This document shows positions 6,583-56,324 of a DNA stretch of 64,000 bases, piece by piece; the stretch's first letter is position 1, and the number at the start of each line of letters is the position of its first letter. The DNA is from Eledone cirrhosa (Eukaryota), in NCBI GenBank assembly GCA_964016885.1, contig OZ024743.1:158100001-158164000 (forward strand). Reading direction: 5' to 3'. Position numbers and translations under genes: made by a program. The notes beneath the pieces were generated by a model. That model was not told where the DNA came from. It saw nothing but the letters and a program-made list of their open reading frames with translations, and searched no databases.

Positions 6583-8632
6583 GTTATATTTGGGGAGGGT
6601 CATATTTGCGTAATATTGCCAGAATTAATAACAGAACACACTCACTGTTTGGTTGGTTTTCGCTTCTCGCTGTCTTTTATATATATATATCTGCGATCTA
6701 ACTTACTCGGTCCTCAATGTTGCCATTGACTGACCGGCGGTCAAAAATAATACAGATACAATATAGACAAACACATATATATATAGTTTACATAAATCTT
6801 TCGTTGCACATCTGCAACATCGTCAGTGGTGTTATATTCATTGTTCCTCCTGTTGTGTTGTATGTCTACGCCATTTTTTTTGTTCAGTCTGTCTATATAT
6901 TTATTTATTTATTTGCTTGTTTGTTTATCTTATTTTATTTTGTCTTCTTTGCGCATGCGTTTGCGTGTGTGTATAGTGTTATGTGTGATGTGTGACTAGT
7001 GTGTATAGTGTTGTCTGCTGGGTGACTAGTGTGTGTTTATGTGCTTGTGTATGTATTTATTTATCTTATTTTATTTAATTTAATTTACTTATTTATTTAT
7101 ACTTCTCTTAGGTCAGTGTTGTTTGTTTGGGTGTTGTTGTTGTTCCACTCATTCTTTCTGTTTAGCTTTGGTCTTCTAATTTCTATTTCACTGGCCTCTC
7201 TGATTTGCCTATCTGCTGGGTCATTCCTATGTTTAGATATTATTCTAATTTCTATGTTGTCTATGTTACCGTCATGATGTTGTCTAGCATGTTCGTATAG
7301 TACTGACCCGTTTTTTCGTCCTTTTAGTTCCCCCCAGTGTTGGTCTATCCTTTCACCTATGCTACGAGCTGTCTCACCTATGTATGTTGTTGTCGTGTTT
7401 CTGCAAGTACCCTCTGTACATCTTATGCTATAGACTACGTTTCTAGTTTTACAGTTTATCCGGGGGTTCACCTTACATATGATACATTTCCTATTGGTAC
7501 AGTGGGTTTTCTTAAAAGGGTAGGTTTTGCTGATCAGGGATTTTATGGTGGTTCCTGGCTTTTCTACCACCTTTATTTTTAAGTGGGTCTTTCTCAGGGC
7601 CTTTCTACACTGGTTAGCTAATTTCCCTCCAGGGGTGGCGTCCACAAACATGACACTCTGATATCTCTGGTTGTCGTACCATGATGTGGCCTTCCCTATC
7701 TTATGTCTAGCCCTATCTAAGCTATTCCATGATTTGCTCCTGTATAGTGGGCAAATTCCTTTCATGTCCAGTTCTATGAGGGTCTTATACTTTTCCATGG
7801 CTCCTTCGTATACTCTGACTCTGTCTCTTTGGTTGTAGCCAGAGAACTGCATGCGGTTGATGAAGTGTTGGATGTGTCCTTCCATTTCTGTTGGGTCGCA
7901 CATGCTGGACACATTCTTCATCACTCGTACCAAATCTGCGATCAGAATATTAAACTTAGCACTACTGGACATTGCTGAGTTTTTGAGTATCAGGTATTTG
8001 GAGGCCATGGGTTTAGCATAGTGTGAGTGGAGAATTTGGGCTCTCTCGTCTATAGTGTTAATCCAGAGTTCTGTGTCTAATACAGGTAGTCTATTGTTAG
8101 GGTGTTTGGAAGGGAAGTCTATAGTTACAGTTATACTCTGGTGTATGGAATTAGCTATCTGCTGGATGCTTTCCATCGTGCTACGTTCTAAATCAAACTT
8201 GTTAGTGCTCTCTAGTGGGGGTGTTCTTATAACTATATTGATATCGTCTACATAACGAGAGTACATGATGAGGTCTATGGAGCTTTCATTAAGGAGATCT
8301 TTAAGTCTCCTTTCCCACCATACCATGAAAAGGTTGGCAACATCGCCAGCTATGCTGACGCCGATGGCTGCTCCCTCATTTTGGGTGTAGATTTTCTCAT
8401 TGAACTTAAATATGTGGCCCTTTAGGGTAGTTTTGATACTAGCCCCTATTGCATGTGCGACCATTTTTCTTACCTGATCAGTGTTTTGGGGGGTCCGTAT
8501 AGCTTTGGTCCACCCAATCCACCTTCCTATGTGTGTTCTGTTATTAATTCTGGCAATATTACGCAAATATGACCCTCCCCAAATATAACAATATCTGTTT
8601 CGACACACGATTTCATATAAAAAACCTCGCAA

Positions 8633-8635
<3 letters not shown>
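6583..8635 (-). mobile_element. Penelope-like element (RT + GIY-YIG), 5'-truncated, with inverted terminal segment; Naiad-like
   Basis: Uninterrupted frame from about 8530 to 7097: GAAIG, RYVDD, PVLDTELW, then VVYSIRC...YIGETARSIGERIDQH and REASEI...LNRK. 59-bp inverted repeat at 6583-6641 / 8531-8589. (TA)n flanks. The subclade is inferred. Confidence 0.9.
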
Positions 8636-8671
<36 letters not shown>

Positions 8672-8797
8672 GTAGGAGGTGAGTTTTATTGTAGTACAAT
8701 AAAGCAATGCAGATATCGGATAAGAAGCACTCTACAGTTTGTAGGACTGGAGTATGCATAATATAAGATCAAAAGATGGTTAAAGGAGTTCCATATA

Positions 8798-8863
8798 TTT
8801 TATTATGCGCATTTCAAAAACAAACATCATCATGCAATAATATTTGTGTTTTCATCAGATAAA
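8798..8863 (-). ncRNA. Type I hammerhead ribozyme (inverted copy)
   Basis: Reverse complement of the 8909-8975 fold. Confidence 0.75.
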
Positions 8864-8908
8864 GCACTATCCACAAGTGTTTTTTAGCCTTCATATCATG
8901 TTCTCCTG

Positions 8909-8975
8909 TTTTATCTGATGAAAACACAAATATTATTGCATGATGATGTTTGTTTTTGAAATGCGCATAATAAAA
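8909..8975 (+). ncRNA. Type I hammerhead ribozyme, palindromic stem III
   Basis: UUUUAU-CUGAUGA-stem II-GAAA-UGCGCA-UA-AUAAAA. Stem I UUUUAU/AUAAAA; stem III AUGCGCAU. Confidence 0.8.
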
Positions 8976-9031
8976 TATATGGAACTCCTTTAACCATCTT
9001 TTGATCTTATATTATATATATATATATATAT

Positions 9032-18370: not shown

Positions 18371-21026
18371 TCTCTCTATATATATAATAGGAGGCACGTG
18401 GCTTAGTGGTTAGAGCATTGGCTTTGCAATCGAAAGGTTGTGAGTTCAATTCTCAGACCGGGTGATGTGTTGTTTCCTTGAGCAAGACACTTTATTTCAC
18501 ATTGCTCCAGTTTATTCAGCTGTAGAAATGAGATGATAGGGACTGGGGTCCCTATCATTCCACTGTAAAGTGGACGTGCAGGCGCCACGGAAAAAAAGCA
18601 CCCGGCACTCACTGTAAATGAGGTTGCTGTTAGGAAGGGCATCCAGCTGTAGAAATCAGTTCCCGTCCCACCCTTGCAAGCAGGGAAAAGCGGACGTAAA
18701 ATGATGATGATGATGATGATAATAGCTCATTTGTTTGTCTGTTTGTCTCCAATGCACTTACAAACCAGTGGACCAATTATGTTCAAACATGGCATGTGAA
18801 TTCTTTAGACTCAGGAATAGGTTTTCTTCACGCTTGAACCTATATTCATTTCTTTTTGTTTGTCAATCTGTGGACGCCATGAGTTATGATCTTCACTACA
18901 ATGGAATGTGATGGAAAATAGAGAACTGAAGAAGTGAAATATGAAATTAAATAGAGTGCTGAAAGCCAAAGATGGAACTAAGCAAATAAGTTGACAATGC
19001 ATGAACGAAAAGTGAAAGAAATAGAGATAAAGAAAATTAAGAAAGTGAGCGACACGCATTCAACATAGTAGCTAACACTAAAGCAACAAACATACCCTTG
19101 CTTAAGTATTGCATGAGAGGAGGTACAACTAAAACAAGTGAGCGACACATGTTCAATCAACTGCTTTAATATCAAAATCTGTTCTCTTCTCTACTGGTTG
19201 CAGCATATTTTGTCATACATTCTTTATATTTCTTCTGTGTGTGTATATATGTCATATCTACTTAATATTTGACCTGTGAACAAAAAGACTTCCATACAGT
19301 TTGAGGGCATTGTGTTTGTATTTTAATGCACGTTTGTAGTTGGTGGTGGCACTGACACTATTGACATTTCACTGTTACCATGACTACCAATGTTATTTTT
19401 CCAAACTCAAGAAAGCTTCTAGATATAAGTTCGAAAGCAGAAATAATGAAGCGGAGTTACAGCTAGATCCTGTCAAAATCTCCATGTGGTTTAATTGACC
19501 TGGATGTGGCCCGGCACCCATAGAGTGTAAAAAGTTAAGGGCTGAAATACGTGTGTGAGGGGGGGGGGGCTTCTTCTCTGAAGACCTTCTGCTTTCCAGC
19601 TTTCCCAAGAGTTTCTTACCATTATCTTCCCATGCGTGTGTATATATGCCACATTTTCTTATATAGCTCTGTGTATATATGTGTGTTGTGTGTCAGCCTC
19701 TCATTCAATTTTGGCTTCTTTATTTGATTTATGGAAACACTACTAAAAATAACACATATGAAGCCTTTTGCATATTCTTTCCATTAGTTTTTGGTTGTTG
19801 TTTCTGAAAAATCACTGAAAGTTAATGCAATGGGTCCACGTCCAACAGAATTTGATGACTTAGATCCCTCATTAACAGAAAAATTAAAAATCTTTAGATA
19901 AATAATAGTGGCATTTGAAGTTGCAAATAAAAAGTGCCTTTGGAAGAAAATCTCATAAAACTATGGCAAAGCAGTGACAAAGGCAGAATGAAAGTGAAGA
20001 GCAGCGACAAGAACGACTCTAAAAACAAAGTAAAGCAACAGCGATATATATAAGCAAAATGAATCAGGACAAAGATCAAAAAGGTTTGCTAATGGTAGAA
20101 CACAGAAAGCAACTTTTCATCAAGAGGAATTAGATTATGGAACTACAGCTCAAAACAGACAGGATGAATCAGATGCACAAAGATCATCAAGACTTCAACA
20201 ACAAAGAATAAGAAGTGCACAGAATAGACAGGGTGAATCAGAGGAACACAGATCAAAAAGGCTTGCTGAAAATATGACAATGGAAGCAACTATTCAACAA
20301 GAGGATTCAGATGTACGAAAATTATTAAGACAGCAAATGGAGAGAAATAGAACAGATTAAAGGTGGCGTGAAGAAACTGAAGCTCAAACAACTCAAAGGC
20401 TATGTGAACAGAGAGCAAGAACAGAAGATTTATGATTTTAAAAGGTTGTTGAGTGGAACTTTGCTGCTTTTAGTTACAATTCACATCAAGACTATGCCTC
20501 AGAACTTTTAATTTGAATTTCCTCAATTAACAAAATTTGTCCTAATTGTAGTTCTAAAAAATCGAATGGTCAGTCAACTGGATTGTGCTGTTTAAATGGA
20601 AAGATTAAATTTTGATTATTACCTGAACCACCAGAACACTTGAGGGGACTGCTGATTCGTACAACTACTGAATCAAGACACTTTCTTCAAAATGTCCAGA
20701 AGTAGAATAATGCATTCCAAATGACATCATTTGGTGCAAATGTCATACATGAAGGTGGCTTTATGCCCACAGCATTGGACTACTTTAGTCACTTTCAGAA
20801 GAAAACCAAAATATTTACAACTGTATTTTATCAGTGATATGAAAACCCAAGTACAGACAAGATATGAAAGGAATAAAGAAACTAAGTATGAAATCACATT
20901 GCAACTAAAAGATATGTTACATAAAAGAAACAGCTATATTATAAGTTTCAAATATACTATAGAAAAAGCTTTGAATGAAATTTCATTAATTTCTTCAACC
21001 CGAGCAATGCCGGATACTTCTTCTAG
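18371..21026 (+). mobile_element. Internally deleted Helitron
   Basis: A|TC 5' end; 3' hairpin CCGAGCAATGCCGG followed by CTAG|T. Decayed RepHel N-terminus CPNC...CCLNGKI..PEPPEHL...HFLQN...FQMTSFGA and KYLQLYF. Confidence 0.8.
18391..18720 (+). mobile_element. tRNA-derived SINE with RTE 3' tail
   Basis: A box TGGCTTAGTGG, B box GAGTTCAATTC, (ATG)n tail. TSD ATAATAG at 18384-18390 / 18719-18725. Confidence 0.88.
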
Positions 21027-21107: not shown

Positions 21108-21889
21108 CCCGAACGTTTAATTAGGAATATACTCACTTATTTCCTAATGTTTGTTGAGTGAGTTGGGATCTGGCCGGAGTATCGCTAAAAGCTTTCTCTG
21201 ATAATGTATTTATTTATTTACTCTTGGTGCAACGGATATGAACTTCCCGATATAAGGTTTGACTCTCTTTGTTTATTTTTTTTATATATGAATATTGATT
21301 GTTTCTTGTATCTCATTCTGTTATTTTGCCCGAGAAAATATCTGTGTGTCATCAAACAATGTACACACATGGATATTTGTTCAAATTCGAATTGAGTTCT
21401 AGCACGTAGCCTGAATTCCTTTTAGAATTCATTGTCCTGCGCATGTATTGTTTTTTTTGCGGTAATATACTTCCTCATTTTTGAATCAGTTTGAGTATTT
21501 CTTTAAAACTGCTAGAGTAGCAACCTAGCAGATACCTCAGACACTGATGGTGATTATCGCTAAATACCGATATTAATTTGATTATCAATATTAGTATTAT
21601 TGGGCACCCACTGATGAATTATAAGAGCCCACTTGAATATGTATCTGTTGATCTTATACAAGCTTCTACATAAATTGGTATAATTTCACCCAAATAATGA
21701 AACGAGACGTCCGTCTGGGAAGAGATATATCCGATATGTCTCATATGAAATAATATAGCCAATTTTCCACACAATACAATTAGTTAGCACCCCGAACGTT
21801 TAATTAGGAATATACTCACTTATTTCCTAATGTTTGTTGAGTGAGTTGGGATGTGGCTGGAGTATCGCTAAAAGCTTTCTCCGATAATG

Positions 21890-21896
<7 letters not shown>
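21108..21896 (+). mobile_element. Non-coding HHR element, about 1.15 copies of a 683-nt unit (retrozyme-like)
   Basis: 106-bp direct repeat at 21108-21213 / 21791-21896. One hammerhead and no long ORF. (TC)n and (TA)n flanks. Confidence 0.75.
21607..21719 (+). ncRNA. Type I hammerhead ribozyme with extended stem II
   Basis: CCCA-CUGAUGA-AUUAU...AUAAU-GAAA-CGAGACGUCCG-UC-UGGG. Confidence 0.8.
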
Positions 21897-21960
<64 letters not shown>

Positions 21961-21966
<6 letters not shown>

Positions 21967-22305
21967 GTGAGGTTTTTTTTTACAAAATGAAAAATAACCA
22001 AGGTGTCCTACACGAGTGAAAGTATAAATGAAAAAAGATGAAATCGAAAATGCAACTGGAGTCTTATTTTTTTTAAAAATATATATATTTATTTGGTTCC
22101 TTTACCGGTTTCGCAGTTCTTCTGCTTTTCAAAAGTAGAGTTGAGATGGAGGGTCTGTGGTTTTTCGAGAAAAACCACAGACCCTCCATCTCAACTCTAC
22201 TTTTGAAAAGCAGAAGAACTGCGAAACCGGTAAAGGAACCAAATAAATATATATATTTTTTTTAAAAATAAGACTCCAGTTGCATTTTCGATTTCATCTT
22301 TTTTT
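21961..22305. mobile_element. Fold-back PLE-like terminal fragment
   Basis: Arms of about 136 bp (22031-22305) with a 2-nt loop. Decayed HHR UUGAAAA-GCAG..CUGC-GAAA-CCGG-UA. Confidence 0.65.
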
Positions 22306-22308
22306 CTT

Positions 22309-22400
<92 letters not shown>

Positions 22401-22800: not shown

Positions 22801-23050
22801 AATCAGATGAGATTTTGGTTTTGCTTAATTAACAGGACTAATAAAAGAACTTGAAATAGCAGGCAGACTGTCTTAACGTTTCAGACGCTAGTGCTTCACC
22901 ATCAAAAGAAGAAAGAATCAGAAATTAGAATGATTGAAGTGACGGGCAGGGCAGGATAGGAAAAAATATTTTTAGAAAAAAATAAGAGGTCCATTCATGT
23001 TGCCATCTCTTGGAAATATATATATATAGTAATATATGAGGTAATAGCGT

Positions 23051-23150
<100 letters not shown>

Positions 23151-23151
23151 G

Positions 23152-23214
<63 letters not shown>

Positions 23215-23239
23215 ATGTATATATATATATATATATATG

Positions 23240-23270
<31 letters not shown>

Positions 23271-23276
<6 letters not shown>

Positions 23277-24120
23277 GGAAAAAATGAAACGAAATTTCAT
23301 TTCCCACTCTTAGTACGGCTGTTACTTAAATATAAGTATGTACACGTACATACATATATGTATACAGACGTACAGTAGTATGTATATATATATATATACA
23401 TGCACACATATATATATGTACGTATGGATTCACCGAACATTTATTATAATGCTCGGTGTGTTTGTAAACAAACATCCCATATTAAGCCGTAGTGTCCAGC
23501 AACCATCGTTGCTTGTTTGTTCAACACTGAGAAAGGAACGCTGTACTAGTTTCAAGCTTATTAGCTATCATCAGCAACATATACCTTCCTGCCAGATTGT
23601 TGAACGTATGTACTTACCTTATGCATATTAACGGCTGAGTAGCCCAATTTGCATATCGAGTGGGTTAATCGGCCGGGTGCACCGAAAACGATAAACGGAA
23701 AAAATGAAACGAAATTTCATTTCCCACTCTTAGTACGGCTGTTACTTAAATATAAGTATGTACAAGTACATACATATATGTATACAGACGTACAGTAGTA
23801 TGTATATATATATATACATACATGCACACATATATATATGAATCACCGAACATTTGTTATAATGCTCGGTGTGTTTGTAAACAAACATCCCGTATTAAGC
23901 CGTAGTGTCCAGCAACCATCGTTGCTCGTTTGTTCAACCCTGACAAAGGAACGCTGTACTTTATATGTATGTACGTGTACATACTTATATTTTAAGTAAC
24001 AGCCGTACTAAGAGTGGGAAATGAAATTTCGTTTCATTTTTTCCGTTTATCGTTTTCGATGCACCCGGCCGATTAACCCACTCGATATGCAAATTGGGCT
24101 ACTCAACCGTTAATATGCAT
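23271..24120 (-). mobile_element. Non-coding HHR element, about 1.6 copies of a 420-nt unit plus an inverted segment
   Basis: Units start at 23271 and 23691. 23961-24120 is an inverted copy of about 23621-23780. Confidence 0.75.
23538..23580 (-). ncRNA. Minimal type I hammerhead ribozyme
   Basis: AUGUUG-CUGAUGA-UAGCU(AAUA)AGCUU-GAAA-CUAG-UA-CAGCGU. Confidence 0.8.
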
Positions 24121-24545
24121 ACAGGACAACCCGTCTAACCCATGCTAACGTGGAAGAATGGACGTAAAATTGTGATGATGATGATTATGATGATATATAT
24201 ATATTTCATCTCCCCTTCTATACACCTCCACATCTTACCCCCCTCGTCCATGTCCCTCTCCTCTCTTGCACCTCCCGCATCATAATATGTCATACCCCCC
24301 CCCCCCTTGCCAATCCCCACTCAATACCCCAGCTCACACTAAAGTGGTCATGTGGGTGTCACATCAAAAAGCATCCAGTACTCACTGTAAATGTGGTTGG
24401 AGTTAGGAAGGCCATCCAGCCATAAAAACTAAGCCAAAACCAGTTCTGTATGAGTGAGACTTGGCCATCTGGCTTGTCTCACAATGGGGCAACCTGTCTA
24501 ACTCATGCCAGCTGGAAAAATAGCCGTTAGATGGTGATGGTGGTA
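24121..24545 (+). mobile_element. Two RTE-related 3' tails
   Basis: AACCCATGCTAACGTGGAAGAATGGACGTAAAA(TGA)n, followed by a diverged TAGGAAGGCCATCCAGC tail. Confidence 0.65.
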
Positions 24546-33700: not shown

Positions 33701-34027
33701 AATTAATCTGAAAAAACAACCCAAACAAGCGTTAGAACAAAAAAATGAAAAGCTTATATTTCAGTCAATATTGAAAAACTGTCTTTAAAGTCATTATATC
33801 TAAAATATGACATGACTTTGTATTTAAGATTATATAAAAATATATAATCCGGCCTATGAATTTAGGACGAATGTTTACCGTGAACTACTTTTTACGGTTA
33901 TCCGTTTAAAAAAAGCAATTAGAGTTATCTCCCTTTGGACAATCAGCCTAGTTTTGTATTTTTATGCTGACCAATTAGTATTTACGTTTAGTTTATACTT
34001 TACTGGCAATAGTTATAATTTGACATT

Positions 34028-35044
34028 ATGTTTAATTATTCAGACGATGAAGACTATCTGGATTTGGATTTCGATGATAACAGTGAAGGGAATTCTTCTG
34101 AAAGTTCTGATGATGATATCAGTATTGTTGCAAAACAAGCAGATAATCGCTGTAAGATAACAACTTTTTCCAAAGTAAAACCTAAAACAACTTTGAAACA
34201 AGACAGTAGCGATTTCGAAGATGAAATGGAACATGAGCTTTCACAAAATATTGAATCATTGAAAAGACACTTCAAATCGTCTCAACAACAACGGCACCCA
34301 ATTGCCGCTAGTAGCGAATCTACCACAACTGCAACTACATCAATAGCTTCTACGAGTGATAATTGTGATGGTGAAAATAATAACAAGTTCTACAACGATA
34401 TTTATTTTGATTCCGATGAAGAAGATGCTGAAGATTCTGCTAATAAGGATAGTAGTAGCAAACATCATAGAGTCATGTCTAACGATGAACTCTTCTATGA
34501 CCCAACTATGGACGCGAAAGACCAATTATGGATGGACGAACGGAGACGAAATCCACACAAAAGAAATGTCAAATTCATGCCTCCTCCAGGTTCCAAAATA
34601 AAAACTACAAAGACGGACAGAACAAAACTTACGCCCAAAAGTAAAAAAGGAACGGGTGATAAATCTCAGAAAACTGTTCGGTTCAATTTATCCGATGGCA
34701 TTGAAAACCCCACAAAGAACAAGTCTTCCAAGATACCTAAAAGACCATCTTCCGATGCTTTGTTAGACTGTCCAGCATGTATGACAACAATTTGTGTCGA
34801 TTGTCAAAGACACGACAGATACCCTAACCAATACCGTGCCATGTTTGTTATGAACTGCTCCGTAGATTATTCTGAAAATTTATCTTACCCAAATTCCAGT
34901 AAAGACTCTAAGAAAATGAAAATATCTGATAAAACGAATGAAGTGTATCACCCAGTTTATTGTAACGAATGTAAAACCCAAGTTGCTGTTTATGATGAGG
35001 ATGAAATTTATCATTTCTTTAATGTAATAAGTAGTTACGGTTGA
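34028..35044 (+). CDS. EAPP: E2F-associated phosphoprotein homolog, single coding exon
   Basis: 338 aa, acidic N-terminus, YNDIYFDSDEE, NDELFYDP. C-terminal SDALLDCPACMTTICVDCQRH...QYRAMFVMNC...YHPVYCNECKTQVAVYDEDEIYHFFNV. Confidence 0.93.
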   Translation: MFNYSDDEDYLDLDFDDNSEGNSSESSDDDISIVAKQADNRCKITTFSKVKPKTTLKQDSSDFEDEMEHELSQNIESLKRHFKSSQQQRHPIAASSESTTTATTSIASTSDNCDGENNNKFYNDIYFDSDEEDAEDSANKDSSSKHHRVMSNDELFYDPTMDAKDQLWMDERRRNPHKRNVKFMPPPGSKIKTTKTDRTKLTPKSKKGTGDKSQKTVRFNLSDGIENPTKNKSSKIPKRPSSDALLDCPACMTTICVDCQRHDRYPNQYRAMFVMNCSVDYSENLSYPNSSKDSKKMKISDKTNEVYHPVYCNECKTQVAVYDEDEIYHFFNVISSYG

Positions 35045-46611: not shown

Positions 46612-48770
46612 AGATCAAAAGATGGTTAAAAGAGTTCCAAGTATTTTATTATGCGCATTTCAAAAACAAATATCATCATGGGATGATATCTGCGTTCTAA
46701 TCAGATAAAATAGGGAGACATGATATGAAGCTTAAAAAACACTTGTGACCAGTGAAGTTTTAAATCAACATATGAAAAATAAATTAAGATAGATATATGA
46801 GATTGGGAAAAAATGGGGGTGGGGGGTAGGAAAAGGTAAGGAAGAGGAAGAAATAAGAGTAAAGGATAGTGGGCGAGGAGTATAAGAAGGAATGATGAGA
46901 GAGGAGGAGAAATGGGTGATAGAGAGAGAGAGATAGCCTTTACAACTGAGAAAATATTGTCTCACGGAGAGAAATAAAAAAAACCGTTGGTTTTGAAATT
47001 AAAAGTTAATGAGGTTTATGCATGAAGAAAAAGGAATTAAGAATAGTATTAAATTAAGGTTTGTATATTGAAGGGTTTAATAATATGTGCGAAAAAAATG
47101 TATTAATATGTATTATTAAAATAAAAATATTAATGATATTAAGGATATAGTGTGAAAGAAGGAGAAGAATAAATGAGTTATGAACTTAGAGGAATTAGTT
47201 AGGGTTTAAGTTTGTTTTTATGTATTGTAATATGTAAACGTAAATAGTAGGTTTAAAATGAGCACGGAAGTAGAGAAGAAAAAAGAAAGTTTAAGGAATA
47301 AAATATCTAACGTCAAAAAGTATATATGATTACGAAAATTGTTCTAATGGTAATATTATAATATATTAAAAAAAGAAATTAGTTAGGGTTTAAGTTTGTT
47401 TTTATGTATTGTAATATGTAAAAGTAAAAGTAAATAGTAGGTTTAAAACGAGCATGGAAGGAGAGAAGAAAGAAGAAAAATTTAAGGAAAAAAAAAATAT
47501 CTAACGTCAAAAAGTTTATGTGTTTACGAAAATCTTCTAATGGTAATATTATAATGTATTAAAAAAAATAGTTTTAATGGCCAATAATATGAGGAAAGAT
47601 GGAAAAATGGATAATGCTGTAGTGAGTAATAATATGAATTGAGAAGTAATTGGGAAGAAAAAGTACAGATTGGAGATTAGAAATTAAAAAAGAAAAAAGG
47701 AAGAAAGGAAAATGATAAAGAAGAAAGATAGGGGATTATGACACAGAATGAGTAAATTGTATTATATAATATATAATACTGAAATAAGGTAGAAAGATGG
47801 GTATATTTGTAAAAGATATATAAGCCTTTGAGAAAAGAGGATTTTAAACTAATAAGGTATTGAGATATTAGCTGTATACTTTATGGAATGTTCTATGGGA
47901 TTTATGCAAGCAGAGCGAAAATAAATCTGTGCGTCTATTTATTATAGAATTGAAATTAGATATAATGGTAAATTTCTCGGCTAGGCAGAGATTACATGTT
48001 ATGGATAGGGAAGAATTCAAGTAGGGAAAGGCGGAGCAAACCTTCCTCCTTATAGTTAATATTTTTGTCTTTTAAGGACCATATGAGTTCCGAGAGTGCC
48101 GTGTTAGTTCTTTTAAGTTGGTATTTAAAAGACGATTTGTGATTATAAAATCTAGCTTTGAAGGAAGTGGCAGTGGAACAGAAATAGGTAAAAGAATTAG
48201 TATCAGTTATAACCTTACATTCATAGACTAAGTTTTTATCAAGACAATGGTTATTAAGAGGACATTTAGTTTAATAGGGCAATTACAATTACGATTAGAG
48301 AAATTAACAGAATTATTAACAAGTGACCTAGTATTATTTATAGAAGGAATTGGATTGGAGAAGTTATTTACGATAGGAACAATAGTTTCCTGATTTTGAT
48401 TGGTATTATGAACATTCAACGAAGTTACGTTTGACGTCGTATTTAAATTTACAGAATCTAGCCTAGAGTTAACAATGACGTCGGGTATACTACTGCTATT
48501 ATTATGACGCTCAGTGTTGGAAGGATGTAATTTATTATTTAATATTTTATTGTTGTGTTTAGAGATAATGTTAGAGATGTTGGAAGTGGTGGAATAAGAA
48601 AATTTGATTGTATGTTTGTTAAAGATTTTACTATAGATATGTGAGGGAGGGAAGCATTTATCTAAGAATAGTTTAGGAATATTATTATTAATAGATAGAG
48701 AAAACGGAGCATTATACCAAATTATATTTTTGTATCTAGGTCTTTTATTTAAGTTATTGGAATGTTCATA
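46605..48770 (-). mobile_element. Inverted 3' copy of the adjacent PLE (GIY-YIG + 3' UTR + terminal repeat)
   Basis: Reverse complement of 54426-56320, extended by a terminus that matches 8863-9015. Its HHR core is mutated to CUGAUUA. Confidence 0.9.
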
Positions 48771-49807
48771 TTAACTGTTTGAGCGCTAACCCTCATATCG
48801 GATACCTTTGATGGTCTCTAATTCTTCTTCTACAACATGGATTATTACAACATAACAACTTCAACTAAAGACATTTCTATACCTGGTAAATCTGAATTCA
48901 CTAAACTTCTGATTGAAAAAACTGACTCTCTTGTGAGAAGGCTTAGATGGATCGCTTTTTTCCACGACCAGCGCCAAAAAGGAAATTTCTATACTAAGGA
49001 ACATAACTTTTTTGATCATTTATTTAACTCTAGAGGAAATCCTCCTTCCAACAAAAATCTAGTGTAGTTTGTTGACGAATTAACTAATATTATAAGAAGT
49101 CTTAAATTCAAGAGAAACCCTTATAGAGGACAGTAGCACCTTGTAAATCTCAGGAATACGATTGTAAACCTTAATTCCGCTAAAAATGTCTTAGTCTACT
49201 CCGACAAAACTAATAATTTATATGGCGTATCTAAGGATAAGTATAATAACCTTATCCTTAAGGAACTAAGGAAGAATTATCGTAAAACCAACCATGACAA
49301 TTTGGAATCTATAAACTTGGAAGCTTCTGAGATTATGTCTAAACTTGGCATTGAGAAAAAGACCGAACCATTCCTCCCAGGAACTCCGAGGATAAATCTC
49401 AAGGATCATAAAAGTAACTTTCGAACGGAATTGACTGTTAGACTAATCGCCCCCTCTAAATCAGATCTGGGGGTTGTTAGTAAAGCCATCTTGGATAGAA
49501 TTATCCCACAGGTTCGTTCTAATTGCTCTATTTCTAACTTAAATTTATGGATTGGTACATCTGAAGTAATTGGCTGGTTCAACAACCTGAATAAGAAAAA
49601 CAAACAAAAATGTATTCAATTTGATATTGCCAGCTACTATTCTTCTATTTCGCCTTCACTCCTCAACAACGCTCTATCTTTCGCATTTAAATATTCTGAC
49701 ATTACCACAGATGAACTTTACATCATTCTCACCGCAAGAAAAACTATCTTGGAATTCAACAATGAATATTGGACTAGAGCCGATACTTCCAACAATTTTG
49801 ATATCAC

Positions 49808-50080
49808 TGTGGGTATGGTGTGCGGTGCGGTGGCCGGAAGCTGGGGAGTGCTCGACTGGAAGAGTGCTTGACCGGAAGGGTGCTTGGCCGGAAGGGTGCT
49901 CGACCGGAAGGGCCAGCAGGTCGGCCTATCTCTAGCGGTGATCAGGAACATGGTGGACGTGAGTTTTGCAGCTCCCGGTTTTAACGAGTTGGATTGTACG
50001 CACGTGGAAGAGGAGAAACCAGCCATGGGATCTAGCGGCGCCTGTGAAAGCGGTAAGTGAGGTAGCTTTTTCTAACCACA
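49808..50080 (+). repeat. 5' LTR
   Basis: TGTGGGTA...TAACCACA with internal 16-bp tandem repeats. Confidence 0.88.
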
Positions 50081-53937: not shown

Positions 53938-56324
53938 TCCGATTAATCGCATATGACTGATTTGATTGGTATCTTTATTTTGAATTCTTTAAATCGGAAA
54001 ATTCCTCAACTTCGCGGTGGAATTTATCGTGACGATGGCCTTTTTACTATCTTAAACTGCAACTTAGTTAACGTTAATATTATTAAGAACAATATACGTG
54101 ATCTCTTTAAGCACCATAACCTTAAAATTGAATTTGATAACAACGTCAAACTAGCTAACTTCTTGAAACTGGCCTATATTACACTTACCATAAAAACAAT
54201 GAGAATCTAAATTATGTTAATTTTAAATCTAACCACCCCACTAACATTAAAAATGCTATAGTCAGTAATATTGAAAAAAGAATCTCAAATCTATCCTCTA
54301 ATAAAGATATCTTCGACGCTAATGCCAATTACTATAATAATGCGCTTTCTAAAGCCGGTTATCCTGATAAAATTAAATACAGTAAGGAAACCAATCATCG
54401 AAGGTCTTATAGTAAAATAATTAATTATGAACATTCCAATAACTTAAATAAAAGACCTAGATACAAAAATATAATTTGGTATAATGCTCCTTTTTCTCTA
54501 TCTATTAATAATAATATTCCTAAACTATTCTTTAGAGCCTTCGATAAATGCTTCCCTCCCTCACATATCTATAGTAAAATCTTTAACAAACATACAATTA
54601 AATTTTCTTATTCCACCACTTCCAACATCTCTAACATTATCTCTAAACACAACAATAAAATATTAAATAATAAATTACATCCTTCCAACACTGAGCGTCA
54701 TAATAATAGTAGTAGTATACCCGACGTCATTGTTAACTCTAGGCTAGATTCTGTAGATTTAAATACGACGTCAAACGTAACTTCGTTGAATGTTCATAAT
54801 ACCAATCAAAATCAGGAAACTATTGTTCCTATCGTAAATAATTTCTCCAATCCAATTCCTTCTATAAATAATACTAGGTCACTTGTTAATAATTCTGTTA
54901 ATTTCTCTAATCGTAATTGTAATTGCCCTATTAGAACTAAATGTCCTCTTAATAACCATTGTCTTGATAAAAACTTAGTCTATGAATATAAGGTTATAAC
55001 TGATACTAATTCTTTTACCTATTTCTGTTCCACTTCCACTTCCTTCAAAGCTAGATTTTATAATCACAAATCGTCTTTTAAATACCAACTTAAAAGAACT
55101 AACACGGCACTCTCGGAACTCATATGGTCCTTAAAAGACAAAAATATTAACTATAAGGAGGAAGGTTTGCTCCGCCTTTCCCTACTTGAATTCTTCCCTA
55201 TCCATAACATGTAATCTCTGCCTAGCCGAGAAATTTACCATTATATCTAATTTCAATTCTATAATAAATAGACGCACAGATTTATTTTCGCTCTGCTTGC
55301 ATAAATCCCATAGAACATTCCATAAAGTATACAGCTAATATCTCAATACCTTATTAGTTTAAAATCCTCTTTTCTCAAAGCCTTATATATCTTTTACAAA
55401 TATACCCATCTTTCTACCTTATTTCAGTATTATATATTATATAATACAATTTACTCATTCTGTGTCATAATCCCCTATCTTTCTTCTTTATCATTTTCCT
55501 TTCTTCCTTTTTTCTTTTTTAATTTCTAATCTCTAATCTGTACTTTTTCTTCCCAATTACTTCTCAATTCATATTATTACTCACTACAGTATTATCCATT
55601 TTTCCATCTTTCCTCATATTATTGGCCATTAAAACTATTTTTTTTAATACATTATAATATTACCATTAGAAGATTTTCGTAAACACATAAACTTTTTGAC
55701 GTTAGATATTTTTTTTTCCTTAAATTTTTCTTCTTTCTTCTCTCCTTCCATGCTCGTGTTAAACCTACTATTTACTTTTACTTTTACATATTACAATACA
55801 TAAAAACAAACTTAAACCCTAACTAATTTCTTTTTTAATATATTATAATATTACCATTAGAACAATTTTCGTAATCATATATACTTTTTGACGTTAGATA
55901 TTTTATTCCTTAAACTTTCTTTTTTCTTCTCTACTTCCGTGCTCATTTTAAACCTACTATTTACGTTTACATATTACAATACATAAAAACAAACTTAAAC
56001 CCTAACTAATTCCTCTAAGTTCATAACTCATTTATTCTTCTCCTTCTTTCACACTATATCCTTAATATCATTAATATTTTTATTTTAATAATACATATTA
56101 ATACATTTTTTTCGCACATATTATTAAACCCTTCAATATACAAACCTTAATTTAATACTATTCTTAATTCCTTTTTCTTCATGCATAAACCTCATTAACT
56201 TTTAATTTCAAAATCTTTTAAATTATCTATTATCTTCCAACGGTTTTTTAATTTCTCACTGTGAGACAATATCACCCATTTCTCCTCCTCTTTCATCCTT
56301 CCTTCTTATACTCCTCCCCCACCA

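What the first reader, a model, noticed from the sequence alone, without database searches (positions are those of the whole stretch)
23271..24120. 420-nt HHR unit whose second copy stops at the ribozyme cleavage site and then inverts
Seen: a tandem 1.6-mer with a minimal HHR on the minus strand (23538-23580). The upstream copy breaks off at 23960, within 4 nt of the predicted GUA cleavage site, and is followed by a 160-bp inverted segment. Inference: the template 5' end was defined by self-cleavage, and the inversion is a PLE-type integration signature.
Basis: partly seen in the sequence, partly recalled or inferred. Interest (0 to 1): 0.75.

Follow-up and report, generated by a model that had tools for sequence, protein, structure and literature searches.

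The report
Two-armed hammerhead retrozyme; break is chance
A 420-base non-coding repeat with a predicted self-cutting hammerhead RNA occurs about 10,000 times in this animal genome; its copies do not pile up at the predicted cut site, so the break seen here is likely chance, but its back-to-back insertions nearly always pair two fixed end points, which likely records a Penelope-type jumping-gene enzyme copying one RNA from both cut DNA ends.

Summary
The anatomy is real: a 420-nt unit in 1.66 tandem copies (minus strand, ending in (TA)n), a type I hammerhead at 23538-23580, a break 4 nt from the predicted cut, and a 160-bp inverted arm. The inference is not supported. The family has 9,617 exact core matches. 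0 of 98 arms in 60 unselected loci start within 4 nt of the cut site; genome-wide, breaks there (41 of 9,285, 0.44%) are no commoner than at two control sites (about 1.0% and 0.37%). What is non-random is the other end: arms end at two fixed points 59 nt apart, both in (TA)n, and head-to-head pairs use one of each in 46 of 49 cases. Both arms share rare variants, and neither is a fold-back copy of the other. An intact hammerhead-bearing Penelope-like element (PLE) family here shows the same pairing (12 of 13). Verdict: a new non-LTR retrozyme family, likely copied by a PLE enzyme from an uncleaved or circular RNA at both ends of a cut. Driver PLE, expression and cleavage are unshown. The scan has noted this two-arm pattern before in other families and genomes.

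The parts
23050..23270 (.). (TA)n-rich microsatellite: target into which the 3' end of the sense arm runs
   Evidence: sequence; long-end arms are followed by (TA)n-like DNA in 80 of 88 cases
23271..23690 (-). complete 420-nt retrozyme unit (ref 420 to 1), no ORF
   Evidence: no ORF of 120 aa or more inside the unit; 97-98% identical genomic copies
23271..23329 (-). 59-nt 'tail' (ref 362-420) between the short and the long 3' end point; predicted hairpin
   Evidence: 3' ends cluster at ref 418-420 and 356-361; hairpin predicted but weak, z -0.8 to -1.8
23330..23334 (-). short 3' end point (S), UAUAU with microhomology to (TA)n; not used as an end in this locus
   Evidence: loose end into (TA)n at 23330 in public contigs
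23538..23580 (-). type I hammerhead; predicted cut between 23544 and 23543; palindromic ACUAGU helix III
   Evidence: sequence; cleavage not tested
23691..23960 (-). 5'-truncated second unit (ref 420 to 144); break 4 nt upstream of the predicted cut (23957/23956)
23962..24121 (+). inverted (head-to-head) arm, ref 333-420 + 1-71; ends at a non-standard point
   Evidence: non-standard ends occur in 21 of 70 junction pairs
24121..24206 (+). 5'-truncated 3' end of another abundant repeat with a (TGA)n tail and then (AT)n; abuts the inverted arm
   Evidence: 20 hits in 19 fetched loci; high depth in public contigs

Best explanation
This locus is one insertion of a young, roughly 10,000-copy, non-coding 420-nt repeat with a type I hammerhead motif (a non-LTR retrozyme) that sits in (TA)n as tandem and head-to-head arms, and it was likely made by a Penelope-type enzyme working in trans on an uncleaved multimer or circular RNA. 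Steps: (1) inferred: tandem copies are transcribed, and the hammerhead, as a dimer through ACUAGU, releases monomers that are circularised; (2) inferred from the footprint: a PLE protein cuts both strands of (TA)n, and the two 3' ends prime reverse transcription at two fixed RNA sites 59 nt apart, one end at each; (3) shown: the arms run through the cut site and the unit junction and stop at scattered points; (4) inferred: the two cDNA ends are joined by short microhomology or a few extra bases, giving a head-to-head insert with the tail on one arm only. The stop at -4 in this locus is one such scattered stop. The short right arm (ending at ref 71) is likely a later deletion or an off-site priming.
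For: Copy number and dispersal: 9,617 exact core matches, 0 for the reversed control; 2,735 candidates, 40 scored, top ones 97-98% identical. No pile-up at the cut: 0 of 98 arms within 4 nt (2.1 expected), 2 within 7 (3.5); 41 of 9,285 vs about 82 of 8,274 and 19 of 5,144 at controls (hand tallies). Two fixed 3' ends: 81 of 98 arms in the unselected set, followed by (TA)n-like DNA in 80 of 88 and 61 of 81 cases against 7 of 30 for other ends. Pairing: long+short 46, long+long 3, short+short 0 of 49 pairs with two standard ends, p 7e-11. Shared template: rare variants shared between opposite arms 50 of 334, within an arm 95 of 612, between loci 1,050 of 102,781. Not fold-back: 28 of 46 short-end arms reach further upstream than their partner, 7 of 46 pairs are mutually non-nested, and 6 of 49 pairs have breaks within 20 nt of each other (about 4.8 expected). 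Junctions: 36 of 70 overlap by 1-10 nt, 3 blunt, 21 with a gap. An intact 809-aa RT/GIY-YIG-type PLE family with its own hammerhead shows the same one-of-each pairing in 12 of 13 scorable loci. The two common variants inside the hammerhead fall at the free core position 7 and in loop II. Literature: a purified PLE cuts and extends both strands, starts at two internal RNA sites that bound the tail, and does not need hammerhead cleavage (PMC11167929).
Against: No driver was found: neither PLE family examined shares sequence with the unit, their tails differ in length (about 90 and about 43 nt against 59), and the 22 copies whose long end runs into other DNA show 22 different sequences. Circle versus multimer is not decided: in-register and out-of-register units are equally alike (27 loci, p 0.39), which fits a circle but has little power; locus L081 alternates two haplotypes, which a pure monomer circle does not give (dimer template or later duplication). 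21 of 70 pairs, including this locus, have a non-standard end. In vitro, PMC11167929 saw no difference in start-site use between strands, so strict one-of-each pairing is not reproduced there. 5' breaks are not perfectly uniform (chi-square p 0.03; few in the microsatellite-like part, where mapping is poor, and the sample is anchored on +1..+19).
Confidence: 0.72

Rival explanations
1. One reading: the template was a linear RNA whose 5' end was made by hammerhead cleavage, so the reverse transcriptase ran off at the cut and the inversion followed.
For: This locus breaks 4 nt from the cut; 55 genomic copies break within about 6 nt upstream of it.
Against: The 55 are spread flat over offsets 0 to 6 (8, 9, 5, 6, 3, 10, 14, with 7 of the 14 one repeated sequence on contig C27; hand tally) and are no more than at control sites. 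0 of 98 unselected arms start within 4 nt. This copy keeps 4 nt that a cleaved 3' product would lack. 52 of 102 arms exceed one unit.
Confidence: 0.05
2. One target-primed cDNA is made, then folds back or self-primes on an antisense template to give the inverted arm (as proposed for rotifer Penelope in PMC3846280); the tail difference comes from endonuclease resolution of the intermediate (PMC8557442).
For: Explains shared rare variants between arms; 10 of 70 junctions overlap by more than 10 nt; 18 of 46 short arms are nested in the long arm.
Against: 28 of 46 short arms hold sequence beyond the long arm's start, 7 of 46 pairs are mutually non-nested, palindromic junctions are at chance level.
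Confidence: 0.12
3. Both DNA ends are primed, but on two separate RNA molecules (or two independent RNPs) from the same source locus; the template is a linear uncleaved multimer and the hammerhead plays no part in mobility.
For: PMC11167929: hammerhead mutants do not change insertion in vitro; sharing of rare variants would also follow from one dominant source in a cell; L081 shows a two-unit period.
Against: Independent molecules do not by themselves explain why short+short never and long+long rarely occurs; the hammerhead core is kept, with variation at tolerated positions; L069 has 8 near-identical units carrying the same three locus variants in nearly all units.
Confidence: 0.25
4. DNA-level satellite processes (unequal crossover, palindrome formation at microsatellite breaks) or assembly errors made the tandem and inverted copies.
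For: Some long arrays exist (one search lists one with more than 20 matches within 16 kb); no contig bridging this junction was listed.
Against: Thousands of dispersed loci, fixed 3' ends, scattered 5' ends and one-of-each pairing are retrotransposition footprints; adjacent copies differ in sequence.
Confidence: 0.04

Closest known systems
Metazoan non-LTR retrozymes (Cervera & de la Pena 2020, PMC7229834, passages; Li, Clavereau & Pollet 2026, bioRxiv 10.64898/2026.07.22.740005, parts 1-3 of 5)
   Same: Non-coding, low-GC tandem units of a few hundred bases, each with a type I hammerhead; thousands of copies; proposed PLE dependence.
   Different: Those texts, as far as read, describe head-to-tail arrays; 'inverted' occurs 0 times in PMC7229834 and 'head-to-head' 0 times in the preprint. 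Here fixed double 3' ends, (TA)n targeting and head-to-head arms are measured. Their RNAs were shown to be expressed, cleaved and circular; here none of this is tested. No sequence link to a PLE pLTR was found here.
EN+ Penelope-like elements (Craig et al. 2021, PMC8557442, passages; Arkhipova et al. 2013, PMC3846280, passages)
   Same: [quoted passage not shown]
   Different: No ORF; tail 59 nt rather than 30-40 bp; the whole unit, not only a pLTR, is the repeat.
Poseidon of Anolis carolinensis, PAc (Frangieh et al. 2024, PMC11167929, parts 1-2 of 4)
   Same: Both strands cut and extended, two internal start sites bounding the tail, hammerhead cleavage not needed, no reads ending at the cut site.
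   Different: PAc is autonomous; the paper reports no strand difference in start sites and does not score pairing of ends within an insertion.
Dimeric metazoan type I hammerheads (Cervera & de la Pena 2014, PMC4209133, passages)
   Same: Helix I 6 bp, helix II 4 bp, 2-bp helix III with palindromic loop, expected to cleave as a dimer; the paper proposes circles as templates for more-than-unit copies.
   Different: Activity of this motif is untested; it is not the 'min-HHR' with long helix II.

Membership tests
non-LTR retrozyme | tandem units of about 150-450 bp, low GC, no ORF, no LTR | tested here: met
   420-nt unit, arrays of up to 8 units in one arm among fetched loci; no ORF of 120 aa in the unit
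non-LTR retrozyme | type I hammerhead in each unit | tested here: met
   core, helices I-III and GUA present and conserved over about 190 units; Rfam match below gathering score
non-LTR retrozyme | dispersed high copy number | tested here: met
   9,617 exact core matches
non-LTR retrozyme | self-cleavage of the RNA | not testable with these tools
   needs a transcription assay; in the 2026 preprint only 1 of 9 predicted elements cleaved
non-LTR retrozyme | expression as linear and circular monomer RNA | not testable with these tools
   no RNA holder was listed; no evidence either way
non-LTR retrozyme | target-site duplication longer than 4 bp when present | tested here: inconclusive
   both ends lie in (TA)n, where a duplication cannot be read
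PLE-mobilised non-autonomous element | partial tandem plus inverted 5'-truncated copy | tested here: met
   33 of 60 unselected loci two-armed; 52 of 102 arms longer than one unit
PLE-mobilised non-autonomous element | tail on one end only / two fixed 3' ends | tested here: met
   46 of 49 pairs with standard ends
PLE-mobilised non-autonomous element | microsatellite target | tested here: met
   141 of 169 standard ends followed by (TA)n-like DNA
PLE-mobilised non-autonomous element | sequence shared with the pLTR of an autonomous PLE in the same genome | tested here: inconclusive
   no homology to two intact PLE families (83 loci); no shared continuation after the long end; other PLE families were not surveyed
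autonomous PLE | RT plus GIY-YIG ORF | tested here: not met
   units join directly head-to-tail in all fetched loci
cleavage-defined 5' end (R2-like ribozyme processing; recalled, not from a call) | genomic 5' ends cluster at the ribozyme cut | tested here: not met

The most novel reading that the evidence does not exclude
One PLE dimer engages one small circular ribozyme RNA and its two active sites start at two different, fixed positions flanking a 59-nt hairpin, one from each end of the cut (TA)n; rolling copying through the re-ligated hammerhead site gives more-than-unit arms. The PLE 'tail' and the inverted repeat would then be a single, obligatory outcome of coordinated two-ended priming on one RNA, and this is how animal retrozymes enter the genome.
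Probability: 0.4. Interest if true: 0.68.

Novelty: new member of a known kind. Interest (0 to 1): 0.45.

Why it matters
How retrozymes get back into DNA, and how PLEs make their tandem/inverted/tailed inserts, are both stated as open in the papers read (preprint discussion; PMC8557442; PMC11167929). This family gives a clean negative (the ribozyme cut does not set genomic 5' ends) and a clean positive (one-of-each use of two start points, arms from one template lineage, no fold-back) on thousands of natural events, and a 420-nt RNA small enough for the existing in vitro PLE assay. The locus itself is ordinary for its family.

Tried and rejected
Self-cleavage-defined 5' end: rejected. The excluded triplet in both control patterns was off by one base (allowed the family base at its third place, at its first), so only matches with 0-5 family bases before the 19-mer were counted, by eye, in all three sets; one search listed 100 of 110 rows, and 75 of 100 was scaled to about 82. 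Rows dropped: L111 (same place as L031); the duplicated second pair of L084; arms cut by a locus edge; L031-L060 were selected for breaks near the cut and were left out of the histograms but kept in the pairing counts. Of 61 clusters in the first 100 rows, 60 were fetched. Two of the three long+long pairs are doubtful (L023 is a 41-nt piece inside a long+short locus; one arm of L045 ends in non-TA DNA). Driver search: junction pattern (22 hits, all different); two PLE families found from window ORFs (150 scored of 24,340 and of 15,523 candidates), no homology beyond a 19-nt match inside an ORF at E 0.24, judged chance; a shared 8-nt AT-rich word at the short end of the 809-aa family is too weak to count. 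Pfam did not recognise either PLE protein; their PLE identity rests on RT and GIY-YIG-like motifs read by eye, tandem/inverted layout and the hammerhead. Register test for circle versus multimer: inconclusive. Expression: no RNA holder listed. Junction check in public contigs: no bridging record listed; no proof either way. Single-strand folding does not give the hammerhead fold as the minimum (z -1.4 to 0.2), as expected when helix III needs a dimer; the whole-unit z of -9 is inflated by the AT-palindromic middle. Literature searches; none listed a paper on this family or scoring end pairing in retrozymes; subscription papers and bioRxiv supplements were not visible and may bear on this.

Full report
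Observation. The window holds, on the minus strand, a complete 420-nt unit (23271-23690) that runs into a (TA)n tract, a second copy cut short at 23960, one unmatched base, and an inverted 160-bp piece at 23962-24121. Numbering the unit in its own sense (ref 1 = 23690), copy 2 is ref 144-420 and the inverted piece is ref 333-420 plus 1-71. Rfam finds only a sub-threshold HH9 match. The layout is the common metazoan type I form that PMC4209133 (passages) says cleaves poorly alone and well as a dimer.

Family. The window's genome (3.0 Gb, unnamed; it looks cephalopod-like to me, an impression and not a result) has 9,617 exact matches to a 19-base stretch across the core and 0 to the reversed control. 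The best DNA hits are 97-98% identical. Units join head-to-tail with no ORF between them in all loci fetched. Across about 190 aligned units the core shows 60 of 3,139 mismatches against 1,970 of 61,109 elsewhere, and the two common variants inside the motif sit at core position 7 and in loop II, where a hammerhead tolerates change (tolerance from established knowledge).

(a) I took the first 100 matches on contig C1 to the 19 bases just downstream of the cut, grouped them into 61 loci and fetched 60. Of 98 arms not cut by a locus edge, 0 start within 4 nt of the cut (2.1 expected if uniform), 2 within 7 nt (3.5) and 3 within 10 nt (4.9). The distribution is not perfectly flat (p 0.03), with a trough in the microsatellite-like part, not a peak at the cut. 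In the 29 top BLAST loci the figure is 1 of 46. (b) Genome-wide, 55 of 9,285 copies of that 19-mer lack the family sequence 7-9 bases upstream. By eye, their apparent breaks lie at offsets 0-6 with counts 8, 9, 5, 6, 3, 10, 14. Counting offsets 0-5: 41 of 9,285 (0.44%) at the cut, about 82 of 8,274 (1.0%) at a site 14-20 nt downstream, 19 of 5,144 (0.37%) at a site 100 nt upstream (see Tried and rejected for the correction). So more than 99% of copies that hold the first bases after the cut run straight through it. The break at -4 here has a 2-4% chance per locus. It also keeps four bases that a cleaved product would not have.

What is non-random. The 3' ends. In the unselected set 42 arms end at ref 418-420 (long end), 39 at ref 356-361 (short end) and 17 elsewhere. 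Over all sets, long ends are followed by (TA)n-like DNA in 80 of 88 cases, short ends in 61 of 81, other ends in 7 of 30. Both points end in UAU/UAUAU, matching the target. 33 of 60 loci have two arms head-to-head. Among 70 head-to-head junctions in 119 loci, 49 have two standard ends: 46 long+short, 3 long+long (two doubtful), 0 short+short, p 7e-11 against independent choice; 21, including this locus, have a non-standard end. The 59 nt between the two points are the PLE 'tail', which PMC8557442 (passages) describes as often present at one end only and PMC11167929 equates with the stretch between two reverse-transcription start sites.

How the arms relate. Rare variants are shared between opposite arms (50 of 334) as often as between units of one arm (95 of 612) and far more than between loci (1,050 of 102,781); variants private to one locus are shared in register 20 of 78, out of register 16 of 90, within an arm 48 of 113. 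So both arms descend from one template or one source. They are not fold-back copies: the two 5' breaks are within 20 nt in 6 of 49 pairs (about 4.8 expected), 28 of 46 short arms reach further upstream than their partner, and in 7 of 46 pairs each arm holds sequence the other lacks. Junctions overlap by 1-10 nt in 36 of 70, are blunt in 3, have a gap in 21 and overlap by more in 10. In-register units are no more alike than out-of-register units (27 loci, p 0.39): this fits a monomer circle or a homogeneous multimer and does not decide between them. L069 (8 units, same few variants) fits rolling copying; L081 (two alternating haplotypes) needs a dimer template or a later duplication.

Possible drivers. 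Two PLE-type families with many open full-length frames exist in the genome, both with pieces in the window. The 809-aa family has a 3.9-kb unit, its own hammerhead, two 3' ends about 90 nt apart in (TA)n, and one-of-each pairing in 12 of 13 scorable loci out of 20 fetched. The 1,210-aa family has ends about 43 nt apart inside the ORF start (pairing not scored). Neither shares sequence with the 420-nt unit, and no common continuation follows the long end (22 of 22 different). The driver is therefore unidentified; PLE dependence rests on the footprint.

This locus. The sense arm is a normal long-end arm of 1.66 units. The inverted arm should end at the short point but stops at ref 71 and abuts the truncated 3' end of another repeat that itself ends in (AT)n. 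A later deletion, or priming at the AUA at ref 69-71 from the edge of the microsatellite, would both explain it; I could not tell them apart. Public contigs neither confirmed nor denied the junction.

Comparison and verdict. It works like, and by every testable feature is, a metazoan non-LTR retrozyme (PMC7229834, passages; bioRxiv 10.64898/2026.07.22.740005, parts 1-3 of 5), with cleavage and circular RNA untested. Its insertion form is the known PLE form. I found no paper on this family or one that scores end pairing in retrozymes (searches). After these results were in hand I found that earlier AI notes of this scan report the same two-arm, two-end pattern in other families, including a 310-nt family of this genome; they are not independent support. 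The headline claim of the finding is refuted; what remains is a new family member whose footprint makes the retrozyme-PLE mechanism testable. Interest 0.45.

Noticed in passing
window about 8670-9015: Head-to-head mini-insertion of the 809-aa PLE family's end, with its hammerhead on both strands (8863 -, 8910 +), one arm ending at the short and one at the long point, set in (TA)n beside another PLE ORF.
   Followed up: partly
window 7097-8731 (-); G000 copies such as L207: 3' half of a very young PLE-type ORF (1,210 aa full length, long Asn-rich insert, 4.1-kb tandem unit); the 150 scored hits are 99-100% identical over 144 aa. No Pfam match.
   Followed up: partly
window 48228-49871 and 54159-55214; L171-L190: Pieces of an 809-aa PLE family with many open full-length frames (24,340 candidates), own hammerhead and a tail of about 90 nt.
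   Followed up: partly
window 21108-21903 (+): Another partial tandem (683-nt period, 113-nt direct repeat) ending in (TA)n, with CTGATGA and GAAAC..GTC hammerhead-like words; diverged relatives in 3 other fetched loci. It may belong to the rearranged-hammerhead families named in earlier notes; not tested.
   Followed up: partly
window 22023-22312: Near-perfect 144-bp palindrome in (TA)n; other copies (L120, L052) have about 830 or 160 bp between the arms, so this looks like an internally deleted inverted-repeat (MITE-like) element; 47 hits in 19 loci.
   Followed up: partly
   Followed up: partly
window 34019-35044 (+): Intronless 341-codon open frame for an E2F-associated phosphoprotein (Pfam Eapp_C, E 1e-40): single-exon gene or retrocopy.
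   Followed up: no
window 18397-18460 (+): Weak tRNA match (29.4 bits), likely the head of a tRNA-derived SINE.
   Followed up: no
G000:C1:53355000-53369000 and C1:49584000-49589000: Long arrays of the 420-nt unit (more than 20 and about 10 matches in a row), candidates for source loci.
   Followed up: no
G000:C27 13.0-15.0 Mb: Seven copies with the same junction upstream of the cut site: one insertion carried along in a local duplication.
   Followed up: no
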